Of a DNA stretch of 44,698 bases, positions 1,232 through 41,858 are shown one piece after another. The stretch lies in the sequence record OR420686. One strand, given 5' to 3'. Position numbers and translations under genes: made by a program. The stretch is from Shigella phage 1b. Within the stretch, counting starts at the first letter, position 1. Each line of letters begins with the position of its first letter. The notes below the pieces were generated by a model, which had not been told where the DNA came from, did no database searches, and saw only the letters and a list, made by a program, of their open reading frames with translations.

Positions 1232-1561
1232 ATGAATGTAAACGACGCAATCGAAATGTTAACTAAGACTGTTTGCAGTGAGACTAGCCGGTCCTGGGCG
1301 TATACCGATGCCGTGGGTGCGGTGCTATTTGAAATCGAACGTCTGCGCAGTGTAGAAAAAGAATTGCGCGCGAAGCTGGAATTACTCAACGGTACTGCAG
1401 CAAGCAAGCTGCAAAAGCACAATGAAGAAATGGAAGAATACAAAAAGCAGGTTATCCGTTTGCGCGCCGAGGGAAAATCCTGGGCGATGATTGCCGAGTT
1501 GACCGGAATTAATCAGAGCACAGTGCGCTCCTGGGTCCGCAATAATAAAACTTCTAAGTAA
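1232..1561 (+). CDS. helix-turn-helix DNA-binding protein (109 aa), putative transcriptional regulator
   Basis: C-terminal HTH-like segment GKSWAMIAELTGINQSTVRSWVRN; N-terminal coiled-coil-like region; first gene after the divergent promoter region. Confidence 0.6.
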   Translation: MNVNDAIEMLTKTVCSETSRSWAYTDAVGAVLFEIERLRSVEKELRAKLELLNGTAASKLQKHNEEMEEYKKQVIRLRAEGKSWAMIAELTGINQSTVRSWVRNNKTSK

Positions 1562-1571
1562 GGCCACGGCA

Positions 1572-3836
1572 ATGAGCTTAATTAAATTCGCTGTAACACG
1601 ACCCGCTAAAAAAGGCGAAAAAGCCAGGGCGGAAAACTTCCAGATGACCACCGAAGAGTTTTTCGAATTTATCAATGACGCGAAAGAAATCTCATCGGTG
1701 CACATCAACAAGACCGAGGATAAAGCCGAGTATGCGCGCCGCAAGCGTAAGGCCGATGGCATCGTAGCGTATACCAGTGACGGCTTACGCCGCAAGACCA
1801 GTGCGGTGGACCGCTCGATCCTGTTCTTCGATATTGACCGTACCGACACCCGCACCCTACGCCGCTGCCGTAAGGCTTTCATCGACGCGGGTCTGGAACA
1901 CGTATTTCACACCACAACCGGCGACCGCCACCCACTGAAAGGCGGCACGCGTTGCGCTCGCTTCCTGGTACTCACTGACAAGCCTGTACCGGCTGAAGAC
2001 CTGGGCCGTGTCCAGTATGCGCTATTACACCAACTTGGGCTGTCAGATGTGGACTTCGACGATTGCACGAAAGACACAAACCGCCTGATGTACCTGCCAC
2101 ACCAGCAGTCTGTAATAAAGTGTCACTACGGCAAACGTGCCCGCGTCCGTCGTCTGCTTCGCCTGGCGGATAAGTTGGGCGTGGAGAAAGAGGAAGTACG
2201 CCGCGAGCTTACCCAGGGCGACGACGCAGTGGCGGACGGGATTCTGGACTGGTGCTTCCAGGCAGGATTCGAGGAGTTATCTTCCGGTCGCGGTTATGAA
2301 GTGCCGTGCCCTAACGAACACCTGCACAGCGGCGAAGGGTCCACCGCCATAATGGTCAAGGATGGTGAGATCCGTTTCAAGTGTATGCACTCCGGCAACG
2401 AGTGTTGCTCGGAGCTGAACAGACACCAGCACCTGGCGCTGCGTCTTATCGGGATTCCGGACCACCTGAACGTCGAGCCACACAATATGTCCCGTAAGCA
2501 AATCGCCGCCATCCTTCCGGGACTGGACGACGAGGAAGTGGAGTCGTGCTATGAACATATTGTTGATGCGGTTGGCGACGGCGAAGAATACGGCGTGTGC
2601 ACCGATGCGGATCTGGATAACGAGCCGGTTGCGCTGTTCAGTAAGCACGACCCGATTATCGAGGGGTTGATTAACTTCAAATCGACCTGGTATATGGCGG
2701 GTGAGTCGAATATCGGTAAGTCTTTCTACGTGCTGGGTCAAATGGGCGCGGTCGCCGCGGGTATTCCGTTCGGCGGCGCGAAGGTCGTCCAGTCTCATTG
2801 CTTCTATTTCGACGCGGAAGGTGGTGAAGCCTCCAACCAGCGCAAAGAAGCATTGCAGATTAAATATGAGCACGACCTCGACAAGCTGCACATTATCGAT
2901 CTGCAATCTCGCGGCTGGGATATCACCAGCAAATCTGGCTTGCGCGAAGTTATCAGCTTTATCAACCGCACGGCTAACGGCGAGCCGGTTGGCCTGGTGG
3001 CGTTCGACTCACTCAACCAGACTGTCGCGCTGCGCTCCGCCGAGGCTAAACCGTTCGACGAGAACAACGCCAGCGATATGGGTGAAGTGGTCAAAGCGCT
3101 GAAGGCCATCGCGGAGAACACAGGCGGCAGTGCGGGCGTCATCCACCACCCGGCGAAAGGTGCAAACGGCAGCAGAACCCCACGCGGGTCCGGCGCGCTG
3201 CATGGTGCTGTCGATTCCGCTTTCTTCCTGGAACAGCCGGACGACAACCAGCCGGGTCAATTGAACCTGTATCACGAAAAGTCACGTAACGGCATCAAGC
3301 AAGCGCCGCGTGGCTTCGTCCTGCTCAAGTGCAAGGTTAAGGTGGATCTCCGCAAGTCAGAGGCGTTCGAGGCGCACCAGTCCACCAGCACCGGGCCAGA
3401 CTTCGGCGACGTGGTTGCCGGTTGGGACGTCAAGCCAATTGCCGCCACACCACGCGACGAGACTCTGTACCTCGTACCGGTCGCCCTGGCGCCGTTCGCC
3501 ATCGAACAGGCGAAGGCAGCAGGCAAGGCCGCGGTTAAGGAAGAGAACACCGCCGGACCGCGCAACGAAAAAGAGAAAGTGCTTTATGCGGCACTGGAAA
3601 AACTGATGGAAGATAACCCGGACCATACTGGATTCAGTAAATCGGCAATTGTCCGCCAGGCTGGGCTGGCAAAAGGTGGCACGTCGACGAAGGCAATCGA
3701 CGATATGGTCGAGCGCGGAGTGATAGGTTTTTACACCGATCCGCACACCGGGGCCATCTATGGGTCGTCTAATTTGGTCATCAAATCGGATATCCCCATC
3801 ACGCTTTCAGCGACCGATGACGATTTAAAAGATTAA
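1572..3836 (+). CDS. primase-polymerase (AEP-like) fused to a RecA-like helicase/ATPase (754 aa)
   Basis: N-terminal ILFFDIDRTD (hhhDhD-type) and FHTTTGDRH motifs; Cys/His zinc-binding cluster CPNEHLHSGEG...CMHSGNECC; Walker A GESNIGKS and Walker B-like LVAFDSLNQ. Confidence 0.75.
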   Translation: MSLIKFAVTRPAKKGEKARAENFQMTTEEFFEFINDAKEISSVHINKTEDKAEYARRKRKADGIVAYTSDGLRRKTSAVDRSILFFDIDRTDTRTLRRCRKAFIDAGLEHVFHTTTGDRHPLKGGTRCARFLVLTDKPVPAEDLGRVQYALLHQLGLSDVDFDDCTKDTNRLMYLPHQQSVIKCHYGKRARVRRLLRLADKLGVEKEEVRRELTQGDDAVADGILDWCFQAGFEELSSGRGYEVPCPNEHLHSGEGSTAIMVKDGEIRFKCMHSGNECCSELNRHQHLALRLIGIPDHLNVEPHNMSRKQIAAILPGLDDEEVESCYEHIVDAVGDGEEYGVCTDADLDNEPVALFSKHDPIIEGLINFKSTWYMAGESNIGKSFYVLGQMGAVAAGIPFGGAKVVQSHCFYFDAEGGEASNQRKEALQIKYEHDLDKLHIIDLQSRGWDITSKSGLREVISFINRTANGEPVGLVAFDSLNQTVALRSAEAKPFDENNASDMGEVVKALKAIAENTGGSAGVIHHPAKGANGSRTPRGSGALHGAVDSAFFLEQPDDNQPGQLNLYHEKSRNGIKQAPRGFVLLKCKVKVDLRKSEAFEAHQSTSTGPDFGDVVAGWDVKPIAATPRDETLYLVPVALAPFAIEQAKAAGKAAVKEENTAGPRNEKEKVLYAALEKLMEDNPDHTGFSKSAIVRQAGLAKGGTSTKAIDDMVERGVIGFYTDPHTGAIYGSSNLVIKSDIPITLSATDDDLKD

Positions 3837-3845
3837 ATTCTGCGC

Positions 3846-3946
3846 GCATTGGTTGCCATTATGGGAATCCCCATATCGGTAAATGATTAAATTTTGCGCG
3901 CATTGGTTGCCATTTTGCGGGCTTTTAGGTGGTCGCATTGGTTGCC
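3846..3946. repeat. three direct copies of GCATTGGTTGCC (3846, 3900, 3935), with an inverted copy at 4218-4229
   Basis: Read directly; the first two copies sit in a ~25 bp direct repeat aaatt(c/t)tgcgcgcattggttgccatt. Confidence 0.7.
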
Positions 3947-3996
3947 GTGTAGTGTAGATATAGTGAATAGTTATGCAATAAAACTGCATAAACTAA

Positions 3997-4098
3997 GCGG
4001 GACAAAAAGCGGGACAAACAAGGAGCGGGACAAAGCGGGACAGCACCCCTGTCCCGCCCCGGATGACGCGGCCTGGCGGGGAGCGGGACAGCGGGACA
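3997..4098. repeat. iteron-like array of GCGGGACA (six direct copies plus one inverted copy forming a palindrome)
   Basis: Copies at about 3997, 4009, 4025, 4035, 4083, 4091; inverted tgtcccgc at 4050. Confidence 0.75.
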
Positions 4099-4103
4099 GC
4101 ACC

Positions 4104-4160
4104 CCAGTCTTTCAGACTAGACGGGGGGTCTGGCACCCCCCTCGTCTGAGACTGCATAAA
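4104..4160. repeat. GC-rich stem-loop element ending in ctgcataa, copy A
   Basis: cagtctttcagactagacgggggg-tctggca-cccccctcgtctgagactgcataa; near-identical copy at 21390-21446. Confidence 0.7.
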
Positions 4161-4313
4161 ATCCAGTATTGCATAACGCACGGCAGCATGATGCGGATTG
4201 CGGTCGTCGATGAACTAGGCAACCAATGCGAGTTGCAGAATGGTGGGTGAGAAATGCAGTTTGCAGTCACAGCAGATAGCGATCAACTTTTTCATGCGCG
4301 TGATTAATATTGG

Positions 4314-4342
4314 TTGCGTTCGGCAAGGCGCCCTGCTATATT
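4314..4342 (+). promoter_or_regulatory. sigma70-like promoter (TTGCGT-N17-TATATT) followed by the conserved block TATATTGGTTGCACACCAAC
   Basis: Hexamers read directly; the same 20-bp block recurs in reverse at about 15527-15546 upstream of the minus-strand gene starting at 15505. Confidence 0.45.
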
Positions 4343-4370
4343 GGTTGCACACCAACATGAGGGCCGAACA

Positions 4371-7538: not shown

Positions 7539-7568
7539 TTGACTTGCAACCAACACAGGGGCCATACT
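7539..7568 (+). promoter_or_regulatory. sigma70-like promoter (TTGACT, 17-18 nt spacer, CATACT) flanked by two TGCAACCAA motifs
   Basis: Read directly; about 30 nt upstream of a GAGGAG RBS. Confidence 0.4.
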
Positions 7569-7597
7569 GCAACCAATCAACGAGAGGAGTAAACAAG

Positions 7598-15505: not shown

Positions 15506-15540
15506 CTTGTTTTCCTTCATATCTCTGTTGGTGTGCAACC

Positions 15541-15570
15541 AATATAGCGCAACCAACTCCCGCAGTGCAA
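15541..15570 (-). promoter_or_regulatory. sigma70-like promoter (TTGCAC-N18-TATATT) for the minus-strand two-gene unit
   Basis: Read on the reverse complement; shares the block TATATTGGTTGCACACCAAC with the promoter at 4314-4342. Confidence 0.45.
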
Positions 15571-34507: not shown

Positions 34508-34537
34508 ACTATAGTGCAACCAACCTATTGGTTGCAA
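34508..34537 (-). promoter_or_regulatory. sigma70-like promoter (TTGCAA-N18-TATAGT) containing the palindrome TGCAACCAA-ccta-TTGGTTGCA
   Basis: Read on the reverse complement; perfect 9-bp inverted repeat with 4-bp spacer at about 34515-34536 sits in the spacer. Confidence 0.5.
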
Positions 34538-35225: not shown

Positions 35226-35682
35226 TCTCGCTCATTATTTCAATTTGTGCGCTGCCGATTGGTGGCGCTTCGTCAAAGATTATCAATTGCTGGCACTTGT
35301 TATTGCTCGGCCCGACTTCACCGGTGACAGCATGTATAAATCGTATCCGCCAGTCCAGAAGAATTATCAGGTTTGCAGTCTTCCGGGCCAACTTCGCCCA
35401 CTTCGTCGACGTGTCCTGATTCAGCAGCATGACAGTCCGTCGTCCGTGCGCTGCGCACTCGACCCACGGCAGCGGATCGGAATACGGCGGGTTGCACCAC
35501 TTCCACCCTTTCAACTCTGACCAGTCCACATCGAGCGCGCTGTTCTCCGCCGTGAAGTAACGCGGCAGCAGGTGGTTGGCGTCGCTCGCCGCCATATCGT
35601 AACGGAATCGGTACTTACGACGCAGTGGTTTAAATAAAGCTGGCGGCGTGCGCCAGCTATCTTTTTGCTCACTCTTCTGCAT
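35197..35682 (-). CDS. DNA N6-adenine methyltransferase (phage Dam family)
   Basis: DSWRTPPALF...YDMAASDANH...WCNPPYS: the NPPY catalytic motif and the N-terminal DxWxTP signature of phage Dam-type methyltransferases. Confidence 0.75.
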   Translation of the reverse strand: MQKSEQKDSWRTPPALFKPLRRKYRFRYDMAASDANHLLPRYFTAENSALDVDWSELKGWKWCNPPYSDPLPWVECAAHGRRTVMLLNQDTSTKWAKLARKTANLIILLDWRIRFIHAVTGEVGPSNNKCQQLIIFDEAPPIGSAQIEIMSESELHEYLSR

Positions 35683-36133
35683 GGTCGGTGTCTATCGCAT
35701 ACAGGGCGATTTTATTGCCGGTTTTGAGAATGCGTTGCACGCGCTTTGTCTCCTCAGCACTAAGCGGGCGCGCGTCCGGGTAGAAGCTGCCATTTGTAGG
35801 GTTGCGCCACGCCATAAGCACCAAATCTTTACGGTCAACCTTAGACTGGCGACCTTTGGGGGGCACGTATCCCTCGGCGCGTTTGCATTGCTCGCGCAGA
35901 CCTTCGGCAGTGATGCGGTTTAGTGCAACGCTGGTGGTGTATCCGGTGCGCTGCATAATCCCCATCAATTCGAATAGCAGTTCGAAGCGCTCCTCTAACT
36001 CCTTGCGCACTTTCTTCTCTCCTTCATATAGCGCCTGGTTGGTGTCCGCCAACGCGTTCGCACGTTCGGCCTGTTCACGGGCTTCGAAGCATTGCGCGGC
36101 CCAGTATGCTTTTTCTTCTTGTAAAATTTTCAT
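35669..36133 (-). CDS. hypothetical protein (154 aa), coiled-coil N-terminus
   Basis: GGAGA RBS; no motif recognised. Confidence 0.5.
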   Translation of the reverse strand: MKILQEEKAYWAAQCFEAREQAERANALADTNQALYEGEKKVRKELEERFELLFELMGIMQRTGYTTSVALNRITAEGLREQCKRAEGYVPPKGRQSKVDRKDLVLMAWRNPTNGSFYPDARPLSAEETKRVQRILKTGNKIALYAIDTDHAEE

Positions 36134-36152
36134 CGTGATGTCTCCAGGTATT

Positions 36153-36178
36153 AAAAAGGGCGTCCAAACCGGACACCC
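36153..36178 (-). terminator. terminator-like hairpin with U tract on the minus strand, in the 5' region of gene 35669..36133
   Basis: gggtgtccggtttggacgccc followed by TTTTT on the minus strand; lies immediately downstream of the predicted promoter at 36181-36209. Confidence 0.4.
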
Positions 36179-36180
36179 TC

Positions 36181-36209
36181 AATATAATGCAACCAATATG
36201 ATTATGCAA
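36181..36209 (-). promoter_or_regulatory. sigma70-like promoter (TTGCAT-N17-TATATT) with two direct TGCAACCAAT motifs
   Basis: Read on the reverse complement; motif copies at about 36188-36197 and 36205-36214. Confidence 0.45.
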
Positions 36210-36214
36210 CCAAT

Positions 36215-36538
36215 TTACGAATAAAAATTTGGATCGCGCGCTACGTCTACCAGATACAGATTGCTGATTCTGTTGCCGTAGTGGCCTGGTGTGCGCTGGC
36301 GGCACACAACGGCGTAGCCTGGAGGAATTGTATTGCCTGTCGCGATGATCCACGCCACGCGTGCGCCAGACAGCGTCTTGCCGTTGCATTCGATGCGCGT
36401 GCCGCCATCGGCAGTGTTAAGGTTGCCGATCTTGCAGCCTGTGGACTTCAGGCGAATGACGCCGGTTTTGCTGTCGTAGGAGAATAACTGGTTAGTCATT
36501 GCGACCGAAAAATCAATGGCTTCGAATGTAGTATTCAT
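36215..36538 (-). CDS. HNH_3/AP2-like protein, apparently degenerate (catalytic His not evident)
   Basis: YDSKTGVIRLKSTG...GARVAWIIATGNTIPPGYAVVCRQRTPGHYGNRISNLYLV follows the layout of HNH_3-type phage endonucleases, but the usual aHR and VDHxN positions are replaced. Confidence 0.4.
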   Translation of the reverse strand: MNTTFEAIDFSVAMTNQLFSYDSKTGVIRLKSTGCKIGNLNTADGGTRIECNGKTLSGARVAWIIATGNTIPPGYAVVCRQRTPGHYGNRISNLYLVDVARDPNFYS

Positions 36539-36720
36539 TTTAAATTTTCCTCATTGACTGCTATCGCGAAGCCGCGCGGGGTGAGCGACCTGATTAATTT
36601 GGTGCGGGCTGATTTGCCTCCGAGGCGACTATACTGCTTCGAGTACCCATTTTCAACGAAAACAGGTTTCTTCTCTGGCATACGGAAGCCGCTGCCGTCA
36701 AATAATGACCAGATAATCAT
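36535..36720 (-). CDS. hypothetical protein (61 aa)
   Basis: Small ORF overlapping both neighbours by 4 bp. Confidence 0.4.
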   Translation of the reverse strand: MIIWSLFDGSGFRMPEKKPVFVENGYSKQYSRLGGKSARTKLIRSLTPRGFAIAVNEENLK

Positions 36721-38141
36721 TTGCGCGCCTTTTTAGCTTTCATGTATTCCATCAAATCGTCCTGAATATCCCGCTTACTGTCGCGACGCTCGGCGACCAG
36801 TTCGTCAAGTGTGCCGCGCGCCTGGATAATGTAGACGAATACCGGACGAGGGTGTCCGGCTTGCATCTGGCGAACCGGCCCTATACGCTCCACAATCTGC
36901 GAAAAGTGCTCAAAGTTCCATGTGTCTGAGAAGATAGCAAGGTGGTGCCCACCATCCTGCAAGTTAAGGCCGTGACCCGCCGATGCCGGGTGCGCGAACA
37001 TGATGGGGATCTCGCCCCTGTTCCACGCTTCCATATCCTTATTGCCCTGCTTACCTTTACCCAACGCAACGCCGTGCGGAAATTTCTTCTTGAGACGCGC
37101 AAGATCATGCTTGTACTGGTACGCGACGAGCAACGGTGCGCCGTTCAACTCCTCCACGATACTTTCCAGCGCGTCCAGCTTAGCGTCGTGAATCTTCACC
37201 CATTCGTCGGTGCGCTCACCGTCTTCGTCCACCTTATACACGGCCCCGGAAGCAAGCTGAAGGCACTTGATAGTCTTCGACGCAGCGTTCGCCGCCTCCA
37301 CTGTTCCGCTTTCCAGTTCCGCAAATAGCTCCGCTTCGAACTGGTCATAAATCTTGCGGGCTTTCTTCGGCAGGTCCACAACAACCGGCGTATATATTGG
37401 CTTGTCACATCCGAAGTATTCAGCCGCATCAACGGTTAGCGACACGTCTGACAGGCGTTGTTGTATTTCTTTCTCGGAGTTTTTTAGCGGGGCGTGCTGC
37501 ATAGTGAAGCTGCCAGGCTTAACCGGCTTGCTAATAAACCAGCGGTCTGTGAACGCCTTATAGCTACTGCCGAGGCGTTCTCCACCGTCGACAAACCACG
37601 TCTGACCCCATAGGTCTTTCAGTCCGTTTGGTGCGGGTGTGCCGGTAAGGTTAATCCAGCGTTTGACGTGCTTATGCGCAATAGCCGCCAGGGCGCGGGC
37701 GCGCTTACTGCCCTGCTTGCTGCGGTAGCCTTTCAGCTTAGTGGATTCATCGGCAACAACGACCGTAAAGGGCCACTCGTCGCCGCAATAGTCAACCAGC
37801 CACTCAACCACATCATAGTTAACACAAACCACGTTAGCGTCGCTCTCAAGCGCAGCGATGCGGTCCTTCTCTGGTCCGGTGCCGTCTACTACCAGCAGGG
37901 CAGGGAAGCGCCATTTTTCTTGCTCCGGGGGCCATGTACCGGACGCAACGCGCAGCGGGGCCAGCACCAGTACGCGGTCCTCCTGGTTGGACAGGATGCC
38001 AGTCTGGAACATTTTATTCAGTGCCCACATGGTCGCGCCGGTTTTACCCGACCCCATTGTCGCCCATATATTGCATCGCTTGTGCTTGAGGATGAACGCG
38101 GTTATCAACTTCTGATATTCGCGACGTCGGAAACGTGCCAT
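36717..38141 (-). CDS. SNF2-family (DEAD/DEAH-like) helicase
   Basis: Track ORF trimmed to MARFRRREYQ; Walker A WATMGSGKTG, DExx box VVADESTKLK, TGTPAPNGLKDL motif, C-terminal helicase domain (FAHPASAGHGLNLQ). Confidence 0.85.
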   Translation of the reverse strand: MARFRRREYQKLITAFILKHKRCNIWATMGSGKTGATMWALNKMFQTGILSNQEDRVLVLAPLRVASGTWPPEQEKWRFPALLVVDGTGPEKDRIAALESDANVVCVNYDVVEWLVDYCGDEWPFTVVVADESTKLKGYRSKQGSKRARALAAIAHKHVKRWINLTGTPAPNGLKDLWGQTWFVDGGERLGSSYKAFTDRWFISKPVKPGSFTMQHAPLKNSEKEIQQRLSDVSLTVDAAEYFGCDKPIYTPVVVDLPKKARKIYDQFEAELFAELESGTVEAANAASKTIKCLQLASGAVYKVDEDGERTDEWVKIHDAKLDALESIVEELNGAPLLVAYQYKHDLARLKKKFPHGVALGKGKQGNKDMEAWNRGEIPIMFAHPASAGHGLNLQDGGHHLAIFSDTWNFEHFSQIVERIGPVRQMQAGHPRPVFVYIIQARGTLDELVAERRDSKRDIQDDLMEYMKAKKARK

Positions 38142-38145
38142 ATCT

Positions 38146-38370
38146 TTATTCCGCCTTTTTCCAGACTTCGGTTTCACTGTTCCAGTTCCTTTTTGTGGCG
38201 TCGTAGTTGGTGCTGTGCCCGACGTGCACACCCGTCGCCCGGAAGCTCTTAAATTTTTGCCAGCACACCGTCAACGGCAGCGGGGAATTCATGCCAGCAA
38301 TAAACCATACGCGATCGCCTGGTTTACATTCGCCCAGCTTGGTGAGTCGGTAATGTTCTTTCATCGTCAT
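38146..38370 (-). CDS. hypothetical protein (74 aa)
   Basis: GGAGAC RBS; stop 5 nt before the helicase start. Confidence 0.5.
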   Translation of the reverse strand: MTMKEHYRLTKLGECKPGDRVWFIAGMNSPLPLTVCWQKFKSFRATGVHVGHSTNYDATKRNWNSETEVWKKAE

Positions 38371-38621: not shown

Positions 38622-38900
38622 CTATGCGACCAATTCAGCAACCAATAAATCACAGTCGGCTATGTTGTCGATGACGCGAACGTCCGCACCGCGGCGGGCC
38701 ATTCGCTCATGTTCTCGTACCTGGTGCGGCTTCGGTTTGCCACCGGGGCGCTTCACTTCGACGAACACTATTTTGCCGTTGATGATAATAATCAGGTCGG
38801 GCGCACCTGCGCGCCCCTCCCATGCCAGTTTTCGGCAGAATCCGCCAACGGCTTTAACCAGCTTCATCAGGTGACTTTGAATTTTGCCTTCTGGAGTCAT
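38622..38900 (-). CDS. VRR-NUC domain nuclease
   Basis: Track ORF trimmed to MTPEGKIQ (AAGGAAAAG RBS); PDLIII...VFVEVKRPGG...EHER matches the VRR-NUC PD-(D/E)XK pattern. Confidence 0.7.
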   Translation of the reverse strand: MTPEGKIQSHLMKLVKAVGGFCRKLAWEGRAGAPDLIIIINGKIVFVEVKRPGGKPKPHQVREHERMARRGADVRVIDNIADCDLLVAELVA

Positions 38901-39499
38901 TGTCGGCTTTTCCTTACGGCAGCTATGGCGGGGCCAATAAACTTCCGCATTTCGTCCGGGGTAAACCGGTCCCCGCGGGCTATGTTGCACTCTACGCAGC
39001 ACGGTACGCAGTTATCCTTCGTATGACCTACCGTGTTGTCGAGTCGGTCCGCGCCATTGTCACCGGAGAACCCGCAGTATGCGCACGGCTGAGAAGTAAG
39101 GCGCAGCACGTCATCTGTAGTAAGGTCGGTGTTTAGCCCTTTCCTTTCGTCTGCCTTACGGTACTGAAAGAGCTTATAGTAAGCGCGGATCTCTGGTGTC
39201 CGGTGGTTGTACTCACGGCGGGACTTATTAGAGCACGATCGGCATTCTTTACGAATATGTGACCCGTTTGCCCGGCTTCCGGGCCGGAAGTTTTCCGGCG
39301 TGAGCGGCTTGCGCTCACCGCACGTACGGCATGTTACGATCTCCCCGGTGTACTCTCGCCATACTTCTCTCGGCGGCGCTCCTCTTTCCTTATCCCGTCT
39401 CTCTTTCTTATATGCCGCCATGCATTTGGCGCACCACGACTGGCCCTTGTTGAAAGCGGACTCATCTTTATCCGTATTACAACGCCCACAATGTTTCAT
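38897..39499 (-). CDS. HNH endonuclease with two N-terminal zinc-ribbon repeats
   Basis: Track ORF trimmed to MKHCGRCNTD (GGGGGTG RBS); C-terminal CAYCGF...DRLDN...GHT.DNCVPCCVECN is a canonical HNH motif. Confidence 0.8.
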   Translation of the reverse strand: MKHCGRCNTDKDESAFNKGQSWCAKCMAAYKKERRDKERGAPPREVWREYTGEIVTCRTCGERKPLTPENFRPGSRANGSHIRKECRSCSNKSRREYNHRTPEIRAYYKLFQYRKADERKGLNTDLTTDDVLRLTSQPCAYCGFSGDNGADRLDNTVGHTKDNCVPCCVECNIARGDRFTPDEMRKFIGPAIAAVRKSRQ

Positions 39500-39566
39500 A
39501 TACACCCCCGAAAAAGAAAACGCCAGACAATAATGCCCGACGTTTCCGCTAAAAGCAACATTTCCG

Positions 39567-41858
39567 CTACTTGCGGTAGCGATACATGCAATCGCCCTCT
39601 GCGGCAAGCGGGAAGCCTTTCGCCCAAACAGGCAGGTCGCACATCAGCGCGCATAGCTCCTCGGTCGTGTAGTCGTCAGTATCCGGCACTTCGGTTATCA
39701 ATTCATCGTGCACTGACAGTACGATCTCATAGCCCGCGGCTTCAACACCCGGCATGGACCATGCGAGAATATCGCGACACAGCGCCTGCACGATGTTCTC
39801 CGTCAGTTTGCCGCCGTAGGTATACTGGAAGCCCCACTGGCGCGTAGTCTGATTCTCGCCCTGGTATTTGATGCGGGTACTTGTGCGCTTCTTGCCGGTG
39901 TCTTCGTCGATCTCAGTCGTGACAGACAGCGCGATGCCGGGATAGCTCATGATGCGCCCCGACGGCAACTCAATTTTCAACCACCACCCTGCGGCGTTCG
40001 GGTCGTCGCGCTCCTCGTCGAAGGTTGGGTCATGCTTCGACTTCGTGCGGACTATCTTGAGCGCTTTCTTACCATCCGGGCGAACGTTCGCACCCGCCCA
40101 GTATGCTTTGCCAGGATTGCGGATTGCGCAGAGCACCGCGTCTTCCAGTTCGGCCCAAAATGCAACCGTCATCGGGTGAGACTCACGCCACATGCGTTTG
40201 ATCGCGTCACACGTCAACCACACGTTTTTCGGCAGTATGTAAGTTGGGCGCTCGTCTTTCTTGCCAGGCTTCGGCGGGCGCTTGGCTTCGTTAATGCGGG
40301 CATACTCATAACCACGTTTCGCCGCGGCCCAAATATGATCGGGGAATGTGCCCTTCATGACGTCCGCCATCGCATACAGGTCGAGGCCCAGGTTTTTAGC
40401 AAACTGCAGGAACGCTGCAACACCGCCACCATAGCCCAACCCCAATTCGCACGCCTTACCAATCTGGCGCAAGTCTTTGCGGTTGGCTTTGATGTATTCC
40501 GGGTCGAGGCCAAACATCTTACCGGCAGTCTCACAATAGATATCACGACCGGCCTTAAACACCATTAGCGCGGTTTTCTCGCCAGCGATCCAGGCAAGCC
40601 CGCGACCTTCCACGTTAGAATAGTCAGCTACAACAAACTTCTTGCCCTTAGCCGGAATAATGCACCCGCGAACGGTCGAGGCCGTTAACTTCGATATGTC
40701 ATACGCCCAGTGCGCTGTCCCGCGTAACAGGGAGTTGATGCCGTTGGTGAGCATGTGCGACCGGACCCAAAAAGAAACGTCGCTCTCTCCCTCGCGGCGC
40801 TTAATCTTCCCTTCGTGGTCGTCGCTATACTCGCCGCGCGCCAGGTTTTGCGGCTGGAAGCCTTTACCCGCCCAGCGTAGCGTGCGTTTTGCCCCACCAT
40901 ACTGGAGACACCCACGACGGCGACCATCGGCGGATAAGCCATTCACGAGCGGATTATACTTAGTCGATGCCGTTGATGACGCACCGAGGCGCATCTCGAT
41001 AAGCACTTTGCCTTCGTCGGGGAAGTCCGGGTCTTCCAGCAGGTCGTTAAGTGTGGATTTCTGCGCGTTGTGGATTGTGAACGCAGGCGCCAGGTCGCGC
41101 AGCGCTGGCAGGAAGTCATTGCCGGTCAGCTTACCGCCGAAGCGCTCCCATGCTTCTTCCTTCAATTCTTCCTTATGCGCCTGCACCGCTTTGATCGCGG
41201 CGTTCGCCAGGTCAACGTCCACATAGAAGCCGCGGTCGTTGATCAACTGGTCAATAAGCAGGATTTCATCTTCCTTCGGCGTGTTGCCCCAGTCCGGTAT
41301 ACGCCAATAGACTTCCCTCATCGCGATGATATCCAGCGCGGCATAGCGCAGGAATTTAGCCCATTCGTCAGGGTGCGTCTCGCGGGTGTAGCGGCGAATT
41401 TTGTATGTCTTAGGGGTAGGCTTACAGAAGCGTTTGATCAGCGCCTTGCCCGCCTTATCCTTCGCGTGCTCTGCGTCAACGCCCAGCACCTGGCACTGCA
41501 TATCGAGGCTACCAGGAAGCGCGTGGCGAAAGGCCATAATCATGGTATCTTCAATCTGGCTTACCGGCAGGTCGATTCCCCACTTCTCACGGATAACCAG
41601 GCGGTCAAACAGGAGGCCGTTAGCCATCACGATTTTTGCTTTCTTGCGGGATACCTGGCGGAGCGCCTTGCGCAGTTCACGCGGCATTGTTGGGGATTCA
41701 GTGGCGTCCCATGTCTGCACGCGGCCCTCGTCGATGGCGTATGTGCAAATCATAATCTCGGTTGTTGGGTGCTCTGCGTAGGCGTACGCCCCTACTTTCT
41801 TCAGGTCCACCCCGCTAAATGTCTCGGTATCGAGAAATAGGCGTTCGAAGTCTTTCAT
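39567..41858 (-). CDS. family A DNA polymerase (Pol I-like) with 3'-5' exonuclease domain
   Basis: N-terminal exonuclease motif FLDTETF; polymerase motifs including RQIGKACELGLGYGGG and VLSVHDELITEV; GAGGA RBS. Confidence 0.9.
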   Translation of the reverse strand: MKDFERLFLDTETFSGVDLKKVGAYAYAEHPTTEIMICTYAIDEGRVQTWDATESPTMPRELRKALRQVSRKKAKIVMANGLLFDRLVIREKWGIDLPVSQIEDTMIMAFRHALPGSLDMQCQVLGVDAEHAKDKAGKALIKRFCKPTPKTYKIRRYTRETHPDEWAKFLRYAALDIIAMREVYWRIPDWGNTPKEDEILLIDQLINDRGFYVDVDLANAAIKAVQAHKEELKEEAWERFGGKLTGNDFLPALRDLAPAFTIHNAQKSTLNDLLEDPDFPDEGKVLIEMRLGASSTASTKYNPLVNGLSADGRRRGCLQYGGAKRTLRWAGKGFQPQNLARGEYSDDHEGKIKRREGESDVSFWVRSHMLTNGINSLLRGTAHWAYDISKLTASTVRGCIIPAKGKKFVVADYSNVEGRGLAWIAGEKTALMVFKAGRDIYCETAGKMFGLDPEYIKANRKDLRQIGKACELGLGYGGGVAAFLQFAKNLGLDLYAMADVMKGTFPDHIWAAAKRGYEYARINEAKRPPKPGKKDERPTYILPKNVWLTCDAIKRMWRESHPMTVAFWAELEDAVLCAIRNPGKAYWAGANVRPDGKKALKIVRTKSKHDPTFDEERDDPNAAGWWLKIELPSGRIMSYPGIALSVTTEIDEDTGKKRTSTRIKYQGENQTTRQWGFQYTYGGKLTENIVQALCRDILAWSMPGVEAAGYEIVLSVHDELITEVPDTDDYTTEELCALMCDLPVWAKGFPLAAEGDCMYRYRK

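What the first reader, a model, noticed from the sequence alone, without database searches (positions are those of the whole stretch)
36215..36538. Apparently inactivated HNH_3-like protein
The layout matches phage HNH_3 endonucleases (YD..TG...K..G...dG......nG), but the positions usually occupied by the catalytic His and the VDHxN/DNR motif read GARVAW and VVCRQRTPGHYGNRISNL. It may be a domesticated DNA-binding remnant of a homing endonuclease, and lies directly upstream of a promoter with two direct TGCAACCAAT motifs.
Basis: inference. Interest (0 to 1): 0.35.

Follow-up and report, generated by a model that had tools for sequence, protein, structure and literature searches.

The report
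Catalytically dead HNH nuclease-fold phage protein
A small gene that about 160 E. coli phage genomes label "HNH endonuclease" encodes a nuclease-shaped protein that has lost every catalytic residue yet is strictly conserved, so it is a repurposed, probably DNA-binding, protein and not an enzyme or a decaying remnant.

Summary
The window is a nearly complete Dhillonvirus (HK578-like coliphage) genome.

- **Dead active site:** the catalytic Asp-His is Val78-Cys79. The loop carries a 2-residue insertion (Gly85-His86). The helix that should carry the metal-binding Asn is absent.
- **Not decaying, not mobile:** the gene is in essentially every Dhillonvirus. It sits just downstream of the SNF2 helicase in four diverged phage lineages and is translationally coupled to the gene upstream. 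Median dN/dS is about 0.05.

So it is a conserved pseudo-nuclease of the replication and DNA-modification operon. Non-catalytic nucleic-acid binding through the retained beta-sheet, as in Smad MH1, is the most likely function but was not tested.

The two TGCAACCAAT repeats are real. They belong to a phage-wide box, (A/T)TGGTTGC, with 20 copies against 0.6 expected. The box forms the -35 region of conserved promoters and is shared by related phages. Whether this protein reads the box is open.

Modest interest: a new variant of a known kind, and a widespread annotation error.

The parts
36215..36538 (-). CDS of the 107-aa catalytically dead HNH_3 / I-HmuI-like protein. About 160 related phage records annotate it as 'putative HNH/homing endonuclease'.
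36368..36484 (-). Residues 19-57: the N-terminal antiparallel beta-sheet (YDxxTG...G...GG...NGK). It is the counterpart of the I-HmuI sheet that contacts the major groove.
   Evidence: DSSP strands 19-21, 28-30, 35-41, 46-51 and 54-57 in the model. Aligned to I-HmuI residues 16-55. Role of the sheet in I-HmuI, I-PpoI and Smad MH1 from PMC3384342.
36245..36316 (-). Residues 75-98: the degenerate beta-beta finger. Strand 1 is YAVVC, then an enlarged loop RQRTPGHYGNRISN, then strand 2 LYLVD. No alpha-helix follows.
36302..36307 (-). Codons GTG TGC = Val78-Cys79. They occupy the columns of the metal-ligand Asp and the general-base His of active HNH_3 enzymes (I-HmuI D74-H75).
   Evidence: Read directly from the sequence; alignments. 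Asp and His are invariant in 7 canonical homologues.
36281..36283 (-). Codon CAC = His86, inside a 2-residue insertion in the loop. It is the only polar residue in the finger region that is specific to the dead clade and invariant in all four of its lineages.
   Evidence: Alignment A5.
36535..36538 (-). ATGA overlap of the start codon with the stop codon of the upstream ORF, which indicates translational coupling. A GAGG Shine-Dalgarno sequence lies 10 nt upstream.
   Evidence: Sequence. The same overlap is present in 15 related loci.
36535..36720 (-). Context: a 61-aa in-frame remnant of the Dcm-like C5 cytosine methyltransferase. The protein is 231-236 aa in other Dhillonviruses, so 510 bp are deleted here.
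36717..38231 (-). Context: the SNF2-family helicase, the conserved upstream neighbour of the dead-HNH gene in four lineages. The annotated start in KarlBarth gives 474 aa, so the true start is probably internal to this ORF.
   Evidence: Pfam SNF2-rel_dom E=8.7e-11; phrog_62; synteny.
36204..36214 (-). Box 1, ATTGGTTGCAT, directly after the TAA stop. Its last six bases, TTGCAT (36204-36209), are the putative -35 hexamer.
36187..36197 (-). Box 2, ATTGGTTGCAT, 17 nt downstream of box 1. It fills the promoter spacer and abuts the -10 hexamer.
   Evidence: The repeats are conserved in 16 Dhillonviruses while the 6 nt between them vary freely.
36181..36186 (-). Putative -10 hexamer TATATT, 17 nt after TTGCAT.
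   Evidence: Sequence; conserved; the same TTGCnn-17-TAnAnT design occurs at 4310(+) and 38645(-). Inferred; the consensus scan did not call it.
36153..36180 (-). A 10-bp hairpin (GAGGGUGUCC / GGACGCCCUU) followed by a run of five U. It looks like an intrinsic terminator for the helicase operon. It overlaps the likely start site of the downstream promoter.
   Evidence: RNA fold -17.6 kcal/mol, z=-2.66. Compensatory stem changes in L015 and L016.

Best explanation
The ORF encodes a pseudo-nuclease. It is a genuine descendant of the I-HmuI / HNH_3 (His-Me finger) homing-endonuclease nuclease domain. It keeps the fold-determining residues: Y21, T25, G26, R60, W63, R90, N93 and L94. It also keeps the N-terminal beta-sheet and the beta-hairpin.

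It has lost everything needed for phosphodiester hydrolysis:
- The metal-ligand Asp and the general-base His are Val78-Cys79.
- The loop is remodelled by a Gly85-His86 insertion.
- The alpha-helix with the metal-binding Asn is gone. The protein ends 9 residues after strand 2.
- It also lacks the AP2, NUMOD or HTH modules that give active relatives their target specificity.

It is not a mobile element and not a decaying gene. It is a fixed, translationally coupled last gene of the helicase operon in the replication and DNA-modification module of Dhillonvirus, Eiauvirus and two unclassified relatives. It is under strong purifying selection.

**Most likely mechanism (inferred, not shown):** non-catalytic nucleic-acid binding through the retained beta-sheet and hairpin surface. 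Smad MH1 and NFI are degraded His-Me fingers that bind DNA in this way. The protein would act either with the neighbouring SNF2 helicase on replication or recombination intermediates, or at the phage's (A/T)TGGTTGC boxes.

**Confidence by step:**
- Homology, loss of the canonical active site and selection: about 0.9.
- No nuclease activity at all: about 0.8.
- The retained function is DNA binding: about 0.45.
For: **Homology**
- phrog_99 E=2e-16.
- phmmer hits to HNH_3/AP2 proteins.
- hhalign 98.6%, E=6.5e-16.
- Profile hit to I-HmuI, E=8e-7.
- Among named BFVD structural neighbours, nearly all are HNH or homing endonucleases; many rows carry no name.

**Loss of catalysis**
- D, H, the loop N, N-L-R and the helix N are invariant in 7 canonical homologues.
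- The dead clade has V/T/R-C/P at the D-H columns and no alignable helix.
- The model has no helix after strand 94-98. Block-mean pLDDT is 90 for residues 91-100 and 73 for 101-107.
- The roles of H75 and the helix Asn are taken from PMC3384342 and PMC5714182.

**Selection and fixation**
- Median dN/dS 0.047, maximum 0.148, over 105 pairs. dS reaches 1.36.
- Residues 76-99 are invariant except positions 91 and 92.
- 157 non-Edwardsiella records carry the gene, against 160 that carry the region.
- The order SNF2 helicase then dead HNH holds in Dhillonvirus, eiAU, L021 and L027.

**Contrast**
- An EndoVII-like homing endonuclease in the same genome occurs in only about 27 Dhillonvirus records.
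- A close active homologue of the query is HNH_3+AP2 and sits in an unrelated module.

**DNA-binding lead**
- The beta-sheet is retained.
- The window protein has pI 9.2; across the clade, pI runs from 7.8 to 9.9.
- P0008 carries a C-terminal HTH-like tail, but the match is weak: HTH_23 E=0.044.
Against: - No direct evidence of DNA binding.
- In I-HmuI most binding energy and specificity come from the C-terminal helices and HTH, which this protein lacks.
- The eiAU orthologue core is nearly neutral (pI 7.8).
- His86, and Tyr87 in three of four lineages, sit in the loop. That is where PacI places its substitute catalytic Tyr (PMC5714182). A non-canonical active site is therefore not formally excluded.
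- I could not inspect model coordinates.
Confidence: 0.6

Rival explanations
1. It is still a nuclease, with a relocated active site. His86 (or Tyr87) in the enlarged loop would replace the lost strand-1 His as base or nucleophile, as the loop Tyr does in R.PacI. Acidic residues after strand 2 (D98, D102) would bind the metal.
For: His86 is invariant in all four dead-clade lineages, and Cys79 in three. PacI is a precedent for a loop residue replacing the His (PMC5714182). Acidic residues occur 5-9 positions after N93 in all lineages.
Against: The metal-ligand Asp is Val/Thr/Arg, and the helix that carries the metal Asn is missing. The acidic residues are not in register between lineages. Tyr87 is Ala in P0008. 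The gene shows none of the sporadic distribution of active free-standing endonucleases.
Confidence: 0.1
2. It is the sequence-specific factor that reads the phage-wide (A/T)TGGTTGC box. On this reading it is a transcription or origin regulator derived from a homing-endonuclease nuclease domain, a phage counterpart of Smad MH1. It would be made as the last product of the helicase operon and would act on box promoters, including the one directly downstream.
For: - The box is strongly enriched: 20 copies against 0.6 expected in the window, and 23 in eiAU. The core TGGTTGC is also enriched in L021.
- A box pair follows the stop codon of this gene in Dhillonvirus, L027 and L021, always as TTGCnn-17 nt-(-10).
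- The protein is one of few uncharacterised non-structural proteins conserved in all four box-bearing lineages.
- The obvious HTH candidate upstream of the primase-helicase is not orthologous between Dhillonvirus and eiAU.
- The I-HmuI-type sheet makes base-specific contacts (PMC3384342).
Against: - The evidence is purely correlative. All four lineages are related phages that share many genes.
- A host factor, the primase-helicase, or the phrog_3127 protein could bind the box equally well.
- A 107-aa single domain without a helper module is a weak candidate for 9-11 bp specificity.
- In eiAU no box pair follows the gene; the intergenic gap there is only 27 bp.
Confidence: 0.15
3. It acts through protein-protein contacts and does not bind DNA. 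It could be a structural or regulatory partner of the SNF2 helicase or the methyltransferases, or a decoy or inhibitor aimed at a host defence or at related active HNH enzymes.
For: Adjacency to the SNF2 helicase is conserved in four lineages. Translational coupling implies stoichiometric co-production. Dcm can be lost without loss of this gene, so the tie is to the helicase and not to Dcm. The eiAU orthologue is near neutral.
Against: No interaction data. No PADLOC or anti-defence search was run. Gene order alone is weak evidence in phages with conserved modules.
Confidence: 0.15
4. It is a non-functional decaying remnant of a homing endonuclease, that is, a pseudogene that happens to stay open.
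For: Catalytic residues are lost and it is shorter than active relatives. One record (SSL-2009a) shows a frameshift.
Against: Median dN/dS is 0.047 with dS up to 1.36. The gene is intact in 14 of 15 related loci. It is conserved at 37-43% identity in three other lineages at the same position. The single frameshift is in an early (2009) genome record and may be a sequencing error; that reading is my assumption and was not checked.
Confidence: 0.02

Closest known systems
I-HmuI (PDB 1U3E) and Pfam HNH_3 (PF13392) homing endonucleases; His-Me finger group 2 of Jablonska et al. 2017 (PMC5714182)
   Different: Asp-His is replaced by Val-Cys. A 2-residue loop insertion is present. There is no alpha-helix and no metal-binding Asn. 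There is no AP2, NUMOD or HTH module. It falls below the Pfam gathering score (13.2 against 24.8 bits). It is fixed and syntenic, where active members are sporadic and mobile.
Smad MH1 and NFI DNA-binding domains (degraded His-Me finger; Grishin 2001, cited in PMC5714182 and PMC3384342)
   Different: They are eukaryotic, derive from the I-PpoI (His-Cys box) branch, and have a structural zinc site in the loop. No conserved Cys/His set for zinc exists here: C35 and C51 vary, and only C79 and H86 are conserved. The similarity scores are too low to claim membership. DNA binding is shown for MH1 and not for this protein.
WhiA (a LAGLIDADG homing endonuclease domesticated as a bacterial transcription factor; references 57-59 in PMC3384342)
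   Same: The concept is the same: a homing-endonuclease scaffold that has lost catalysis and been retained by its carrier genome for a non-catalytic, DNA-directed role.
   Different: An unrelated fold (LAGLIDADG). WhiA has an added HTH domain and experimentally shown DNA binding.
P0016, a metagenomic HNH_3+AP2 protein with V-C in place of D-H
   Same: 37-43% identical to the query, depending on the alignment. It has the same Val-Cys replacement of Asp-His. It still passes the Pfam HNH_3 threshold (32.7 bits).
   Different: It keeps an Asn at the helix position (+9 after the NL motif), and I read an AP2-like tail in its sequence by eye, although Pfam returned only HNH_3 for it. It lacks the Gly-His insertion. 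It may be an intermediate between active HNH_3+AP2 enzymes and the 107-aa form. Its context is uninformative.

Membership tests
Pfam HNH_3 (PF13392) / I-HmuI-type His-Me finger endonucleases | Sequence reaches the curated Pfam gathering score | tested here: not met
   13.2 bits against a cut-off of 24.8, E=0.07. Only residues 60-77 match profile positions 5-21. No NCBIfam model matched.
Pfam HNH_3 (PF13392) / I-HmuI-type His-Me finger endonucleases | Common ancestry with family members (profile-level homology) | tested here: met
   hhalign 98.6%, E=6.5e-16, 92 columns; phrog_99 E=2e-16; 8 of 15 aligned homologues carry HNH_3.
Pfam HNH_3 (PF13392) / I-HmuI-type His-Me finger endonucleases | I-HmuI-like fold: N-terminal antiparallel sheet plus beta-hairpin | tested here: met
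Pfam HNH_3 (PF13392) / I-HmuI-type His-Me finger endonucleases | General-base His at the end of strand 1 (I-HmuI H75) | tested here: not met
   Cys79 occupies the column. It is Cys in three dead-clade lineages and Pro in the fourth. His is invariant in canonical homologues.
Pfam HNH_3 (PF13392) / I-HmuI-type His-Me finger endonucleases | Acidic or His metal ligand preceding the catalytic His (I-HmuI D74) | tested here: not met
   Val78 here; Thr, Arg and Arg in the other lineages.
Pfam HNH_3 (PF13392) / I-HmuI-type His-Me finger endonucleases | Alpha-helix after strand 2 carrying the metal-binding Asn (I-HmuI N96) | tested here: not met
   No helix after strand 94-98 in the model. The hhalign alignment ends at D98. 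The +9 residue is Asp102 in Dhillonvirus only and is not conserved in the clade.
Pfam HNH_3 (PF13392) / I-HmuI-type His-Me finger endonucleases | Structural loop Asn/Arg and the N-L motif of strand 2 | tested here: met
   N89-R90 and N93-L94. R90, N93 and L94 are invariant or nearly so across dead and active sequences.
Free-standing homing endonuclease (as a biological class) | Added DNA-targeting modules (AP2, NUMOD, HTH) | tested here: not met
   107 aa with no further domain. Active relatives carry AP2.
Free-standing homing endonuclease (as a biological class) | Sporadic presence or absence among closely related genomes | tested here: not met
   Present in about 157 of about 160 Dhillonvirus records at one locus. 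Compare the EndoVII-like ORF in the same genome, present in about 27.
Degraded His-Me finger DNA-binding domains (Smad MH1 / NFI type) | Loss of the catalytic His with no Tyr substitute in the strand or helix | tested here: met
   Caveat: His86 and Tyr87 sit in the loop.
Degraded His-Me finger DNA-binding domains (Smad MH1 / NFI type) | Structural zinc site in the loop | tested here: not met
   No conserved set of Cys/His ligands. C35 and C51 vary within Dhillonvirus; only C79 and H86 are conserved.
Degraded His-Me finger DNA-binding domains (Smad MH1 / NFI type) | Sequence-specific DNA binding through the beta-hairpin or sheet | not testable with these tools
   The sheet is retained in the model. 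Binding needs EMSA or ChIP.
Degraded His-Me finger DNA-binding domains (Smad MH1 / NFI type) | Significant structural or sequence similarity to MH1 or NFI | tested here: inconclusive

The most novel reading that the evidence does not exclude
The dead HNH domain may be the trans-acting factor for the phage-wide (A/T)TGGTTGC box. The box has 20 copies in this genome. It is clustered like iterons beside the primase-helicase gene, and it forms the -35 region of a family of promoters. It is conserved in Dhillonvirus, Eiauvirus and two unclassified relatives.

If so, this would be a homing-endonuclease nuclease domain domesticated by a virus as its own transcription or origin regulator. That would make it a prokaryotic-virus parallel to Smad MH1 or WhiA. 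It would be made last in the helicase operon and would switch on the next promoter.
Probability: 0.15. Interest if true: 0.65.

Novelty: new variant of a known kind. Interest (0 to 1): 0.35.

Why it matters
- **Annotation.** About 160 deposited Dhillonvirus genomes, including BASEL-collection phages used widely in defence-system screens, call this gene an HNH or homing endonuclease. The evidence here says it cannot work as one. Any reasoning that treats it as a nuclease, for example as a defence trigger, a DNA-damage source or a mobile element, would be misled.
- **Biology.** The systematic His-Me finger survey found only two of 38 groups without a catalytic His or Tyr: Smad MH1 and Enpp (PMC5714182). 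This is a conserved inactive lineage inside the I-HmuI/HNH_3 group and in a virus. It shows that phages also retain pseudo-nucleases as core genes.
- **An experimental handle.** It offers a small, tractable protein with which to ask what the bare I-HmuI-type sheet-plus-hairpin can do without catalysis.
- **A wider lead.** The associated box and promoter system is an undescribed regulatory layer of a well-used phage genus.

Tried and rejected
- **Word-indexed homologue search.** It returned only close relatives. The exhaustive HMMER search was needed to reach active homologues. Three of its 16 hits (P0009, P0015, P0019) are long repetitive proteins and were discarded as false positives.
- **phmmer of the single protein against PDB sequences.** Nothing meaningful came back, only a PAS protein at E=1.3. 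The profile found 1u3e.
- **The search for related loci with the diverse alignment.** The single-protein scan gave 15 Dhillonvirus loci and 3 more distant hits; the one examined (L019) is a canonical HNH_3+AP2 endonuclease.
- **Structure prediction with an alignment that included the eiAU translation.** It was re-run without that row.
- **The consensus promoter/terminator scan.** It called neither the promoter nor the hairpin in 36134-36214. Both rest on conservation, covariation and folding.
- **Rfam.** No family anywhere in the window.
- **Literature.** There was no hit for the box sequence apart from primers. No functional study of this gene turned up in the Dhillonvirus papers found.
- **A zinc site considered.** Rejected, because C35 and C51 vary.
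- **The upstream HTH protein (1232-1561) as the obvious box binder.** It remains possible in Dhillonvirus. However, its positional counterpart in eiAU is a different HTH class.
- **The N-terminal NUMOD-like stretch of the eiAU/eiDWF orthologue.** It is only half a domain at E=3e-4. It may reflect a mis-called start, so I did not lean on it.

Full report
**What the window is.** The 3.3 kb around the finding is 90-94% identical to about 160 Dhillonvirus genomes, the HK578-like E. coli siphophages such as KarlBarth/Bas17, SSL-2009a, EP23 and Sodalis phage SO-1. The 44.7-kb window is essentially one whole genome. The gene order on the minus strand is as follows:
- exonuclease, gp2.5-like SSB and DNA polymerase I;
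- small nuclease-like genes;
- SNF2-family helicase (36717-38231);
- a 61-aa ORF (36535-36720);
- the target ORF (36215-36538);
- an 81-bp intergenic region;
- a 154-aa ORF;
- Dam methyltransferase.

**Checking the observation.** Its start overlaps the stop of the upstream ORF in an ATGA. Several independent results show the similarity to HNH_3 is not chance:
- phrog_99 'HNH endonuclease', E=2e-16.
- An exhaustive HMMER search of 1.84 billion representatives finds 13 credible relatives. Most of them carry Pfam HNH_3, and some also AP2.
- A profile of the inactive clade aligns to a profile of seven canonical HNH_3 proteins with 98.6% probability, E=6.5e-16, over 92 columns.
- A mixed profile hits the solved I-HmuI structure at E=8e-7.
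- The named viral structural neighbours are nearly all HNH or homing endonucleases.

Pfam HNH_3 itself is missed (13.2 against 24.8 bits). Only the stretch before the active site matches.

**The catalytic residues.** In the seven canonical homologues, the Asp-His pair, the loop Asn, the N-L-R of strand 2 and the helix Asn are invariant. Published work names the key residues. His75 of I-HmuI is the general base. An Asn at the start of the alpha-helix is a metal ligand, and an acidic residue before the His is often a further ligand (PMC3384342; PMC5714182).

All alignments put Val78-Cys79 in the Asp-His columns. A two-residue insertion (Gly85-His86) enlarges the loop. The alignment stops at Asp98. 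The model has strand 94-98 and then nine residues of coil, with no helix. So all three catalytic elements are gone, while the scaffold residues stay: Y21, T25, G26, R60, W63, R90, N93, L94.

That His is not the catalytic one, however, and is not invariant in active enzymes.

**A clade, not an accident.** Four lineages share the dead design:
- Dhillonvirus.
- Eiauvirus, with eiAU gp17 / eiDWF gp31 at 37-40% identity.
- Metagenomic contig L027, protein P0006, at about 42%.
- Metagenomic contig L021, protein P0008, at about 38%.

His86 is invariant in all four and Cys79 in three. A separate metagenomic protein (P0016) also has Val-Cys for Asp-His. It keeps the helix Asn and still scores as HNH_3, so it may be an intermediate.

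**Functional, fixed and not mobile.**
- Fifteen Dhillonvirus alleles (14 fetched loci plus the window) give a median dN/dS of 0.047 and a maximum of 0.148, with dS up to 1.36. Residues 76-99 are invariant except positions 91 and 92.
- The gene is in about 157 of about 160 Dhillonvirus records, always at the same place.
- In all four lineages it lies just downstream of the SNF2 helicase. It follows the helicase directly in EP23 and L027, and after Dcm, a small ORF or a short gap in the others.
- By contrast, an EndoVII-like endonuclease ORF in the same window (38897-39607) occurs in only about 27 Dhillonviruses.
- A close active homologue of the query (L019, 'FSYDSKTG...IDHIDGN...NLR' plus what I read as an AP2-like tail) sits in an unrelated module of another phage.
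- 'Remnant' is therefore the wrong word. This is a conserved pseudo-nuclease.

**How it probably works.** This part is inference. In I-HmuI and I-PpoI the small antiparallel sheet next to the finger makes base contacts in the major groove. Smad MH1 has 'completely devolved catalytic regions' but keeps that surface and binds DNA (PMC3384342). MH1 and Enpp were the only two of 38 His-Me groups judged inactive (PMC5714182).

The present protein keeps the sheet. The window protein is basic at pI 9.2, though the clade ranges from 7.8 to 9.9. One relative has a weak HTH-like C-terminal tail. Non-catalytic nucleic-acid binding is therefore the best single guess, at about 0.45.

The rivals are these:
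- A protein-protein role with the helicase.
- A relocated active site using His86 or Tyr87, as in PacI. This is unlikely, because both metal ligands and the helix are missing.
- A pseudogene. This is excluded by the selection result.

**The promoter and the repeats.** On the transcribed strand the region reads: TAA stop, ATTGGTTGCAT, AATCAT, ATTGGTTGCAT, TATATT, then a 10-bp hairpin with a U5 run, then GGAG and ATG. That arrangement is TTGCAT-17 nt-TATATT. Several things support it:
- In 16 Dhillonviruses the two repeats and the -10 hexamer are conserved while the 6 nt between the repeats vary freely.
- The hairpin shows compensatory changes.
- The likely start site falls inside the 5' arm of the hairpin. 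The hairpin can therefore terminate the helicase operon without stopping transcripts from this promoter. This is an inference.

The repeat is one instance of a genome-wide box:
- [AG]TTGGTTGC occurs 20 times against 0.6 expected. The copies are mostly intergenic, often in pairs.
- Six copies lie in 3848-4350, beside the primase-helicase gene.
- Edwardsiella phage eiAU has 23 copies of TTGGTTGC with the same clustering.
- L021 and L027 use AATGGTTGC, and each has a pair directly after the stop codon of its dead-HNH gene, again as TTGCnn-17 nt-(-10).
- The same spacing recurs at 4310(+) and 38645(-) in the window and at two eiAU sites.

Which protein reads the box is unknown. The HTH protein upstream of the primase-helicase (1232-1561; HTH_23 and sigma-70 region 4-like) is the conventional candidate. 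Its positional counterpart in eiAU is an unrelated Cro/C1-type HTH. The dead-HNH protein, by contrast, is conserved in all four box-bearing lineages. I rate the link at about 0.15.

**Comparison and novelty.** The protein is a homologue of HNH_3 / I-HmuI enzymes but fails every catalytic membership criterion. It works, at most, like the degraded fingers MH1 and NFI, to which it has no significant direct similarity. I found no paper on its function. I class it as a new variant of a known kind, of modest interest. The main practical consequence is a widespread misannotation.

Noticed in passing
window 36535-36720 (-): The Dcm-like C5 cytosine methyltransferase carries a 510-bp in-frame internal deletion. 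It is 231-236 aa in 14 related loci and 61 aa here: motif I (LFDGSG) is fused to the last ~50 residues. None of the best-matching database phages listed shares the deletion. EP23 lacks the gene entirely. Phage Dcm is reported to trigger retron Ec86/Eco1, and dcm-disrupting mutations let phages escape (bioRxiv 10.1101/2023.08.16.553469; PMC12916289). This genome may therefore be a natural or laboratory defence escaper.
   Followed up: partly
window, 20 sites; clusters at 3848-4350, 7544-7577, 15533-15557, 34514-34537, 36187-36214, 38624-38646: A phage-wide box, [AG]TTGGTTGC(A), occurs 20 times against 0.6 expected. It is mostly intergenic and paired. In several places it forms TTGCnn-17 nt-TATAnT promoters or abuts the -10 hexamer. 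Six copies lie just after the primase-helicase gene (1572-3836), which looks like an iteron or origin region. The same box is enriched and similarly clustered in Edwardsiella phage eiAU (L023, 26877-27635). A one-base variant (AATGGTTGC) is used in L021 and L027. I found no literature on it.
   Followed up: partly
window 36153-36186 (-): A conserved hairpin plus U5 run (-17.6 kcal/mol) starts immediately after the -10 hexamer of the box promoter. Its stem shows compensatory changes in two divergent Dhillonviruses. The arrangement suggests an overlapping terminator and promoter: transcripts from upstream stop here, while those that start inside the 5' arm do not.
   Followed up: partly
window 35669-36133 (-): The first gene after the box promoter is a variable slot. 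Some Dhillonviruses have this 154-aa ORF (MKILQEEK...), others an unrelated ORF (MKSLFFDYD...), and one goes straight to Dam. PHROG labels the 154-aa family 'DNA ligase' (phrog_10530), but neither Pfam nor NCBIfam supports any domain, so the label is doubtful.
   Followed up: partly
window 38897-39607 (-), overlapping the end of 38622-39002 (-) and the start of the polymerase gene: An EndoVII/HNH-like ORF (phrog_1035, E=5.6e-43). The real start is probably the Met at codon 37, and the protein has Cys-rich zinc motifs. It is absent from KarlBarth and present in only about 27 Dhillonvirus records, next to the DNA polymerase gene. That is the distribution expected of a real free-standing homing endonuclease.
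   Followed up: partly
window 1232-1561 (+): A 109-aa protein directly upstream of the primase-helicase has an HTH that also matches sigma-70 region 4 (Sigma70_r4_2, 27.7 bits against a cut-off of 25.7). PHROG calls the family 'transposase'. It probably corresponds to the HK578 gp45 implicated in replication initiation by OLD-escape mutants (bioRxiv 10.64898/2026.07.10.737580). The eiAU gene at the same position is a Cro/C1-type HTH and not an orthologue.
   Followed up: partly
L017 (Escherichia phage SSL-2009a) 3001-3320: The dead-HNH gene of SSL-2009a has a one-base frameshift after residue about 73, so its database protein (P0005, 111 aa) has an unrelated C-terminus. I assume this is a sequencing error in an old record and not a real pseudogene.
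   Followed up: no
L002 3860-4315 (eiAU-183 gp17) and P0007 (eiDWF gp31): The Eiauvirus orthologues are annotated with 45-75 extra N-terminal residues. These residues contain the second half of an I-HmuI NUMOD-like HTH (E=3e-4). This is either a fused fragment of another endonuclease's DNA-binding tail or a mis-called start.
   Followed up: no
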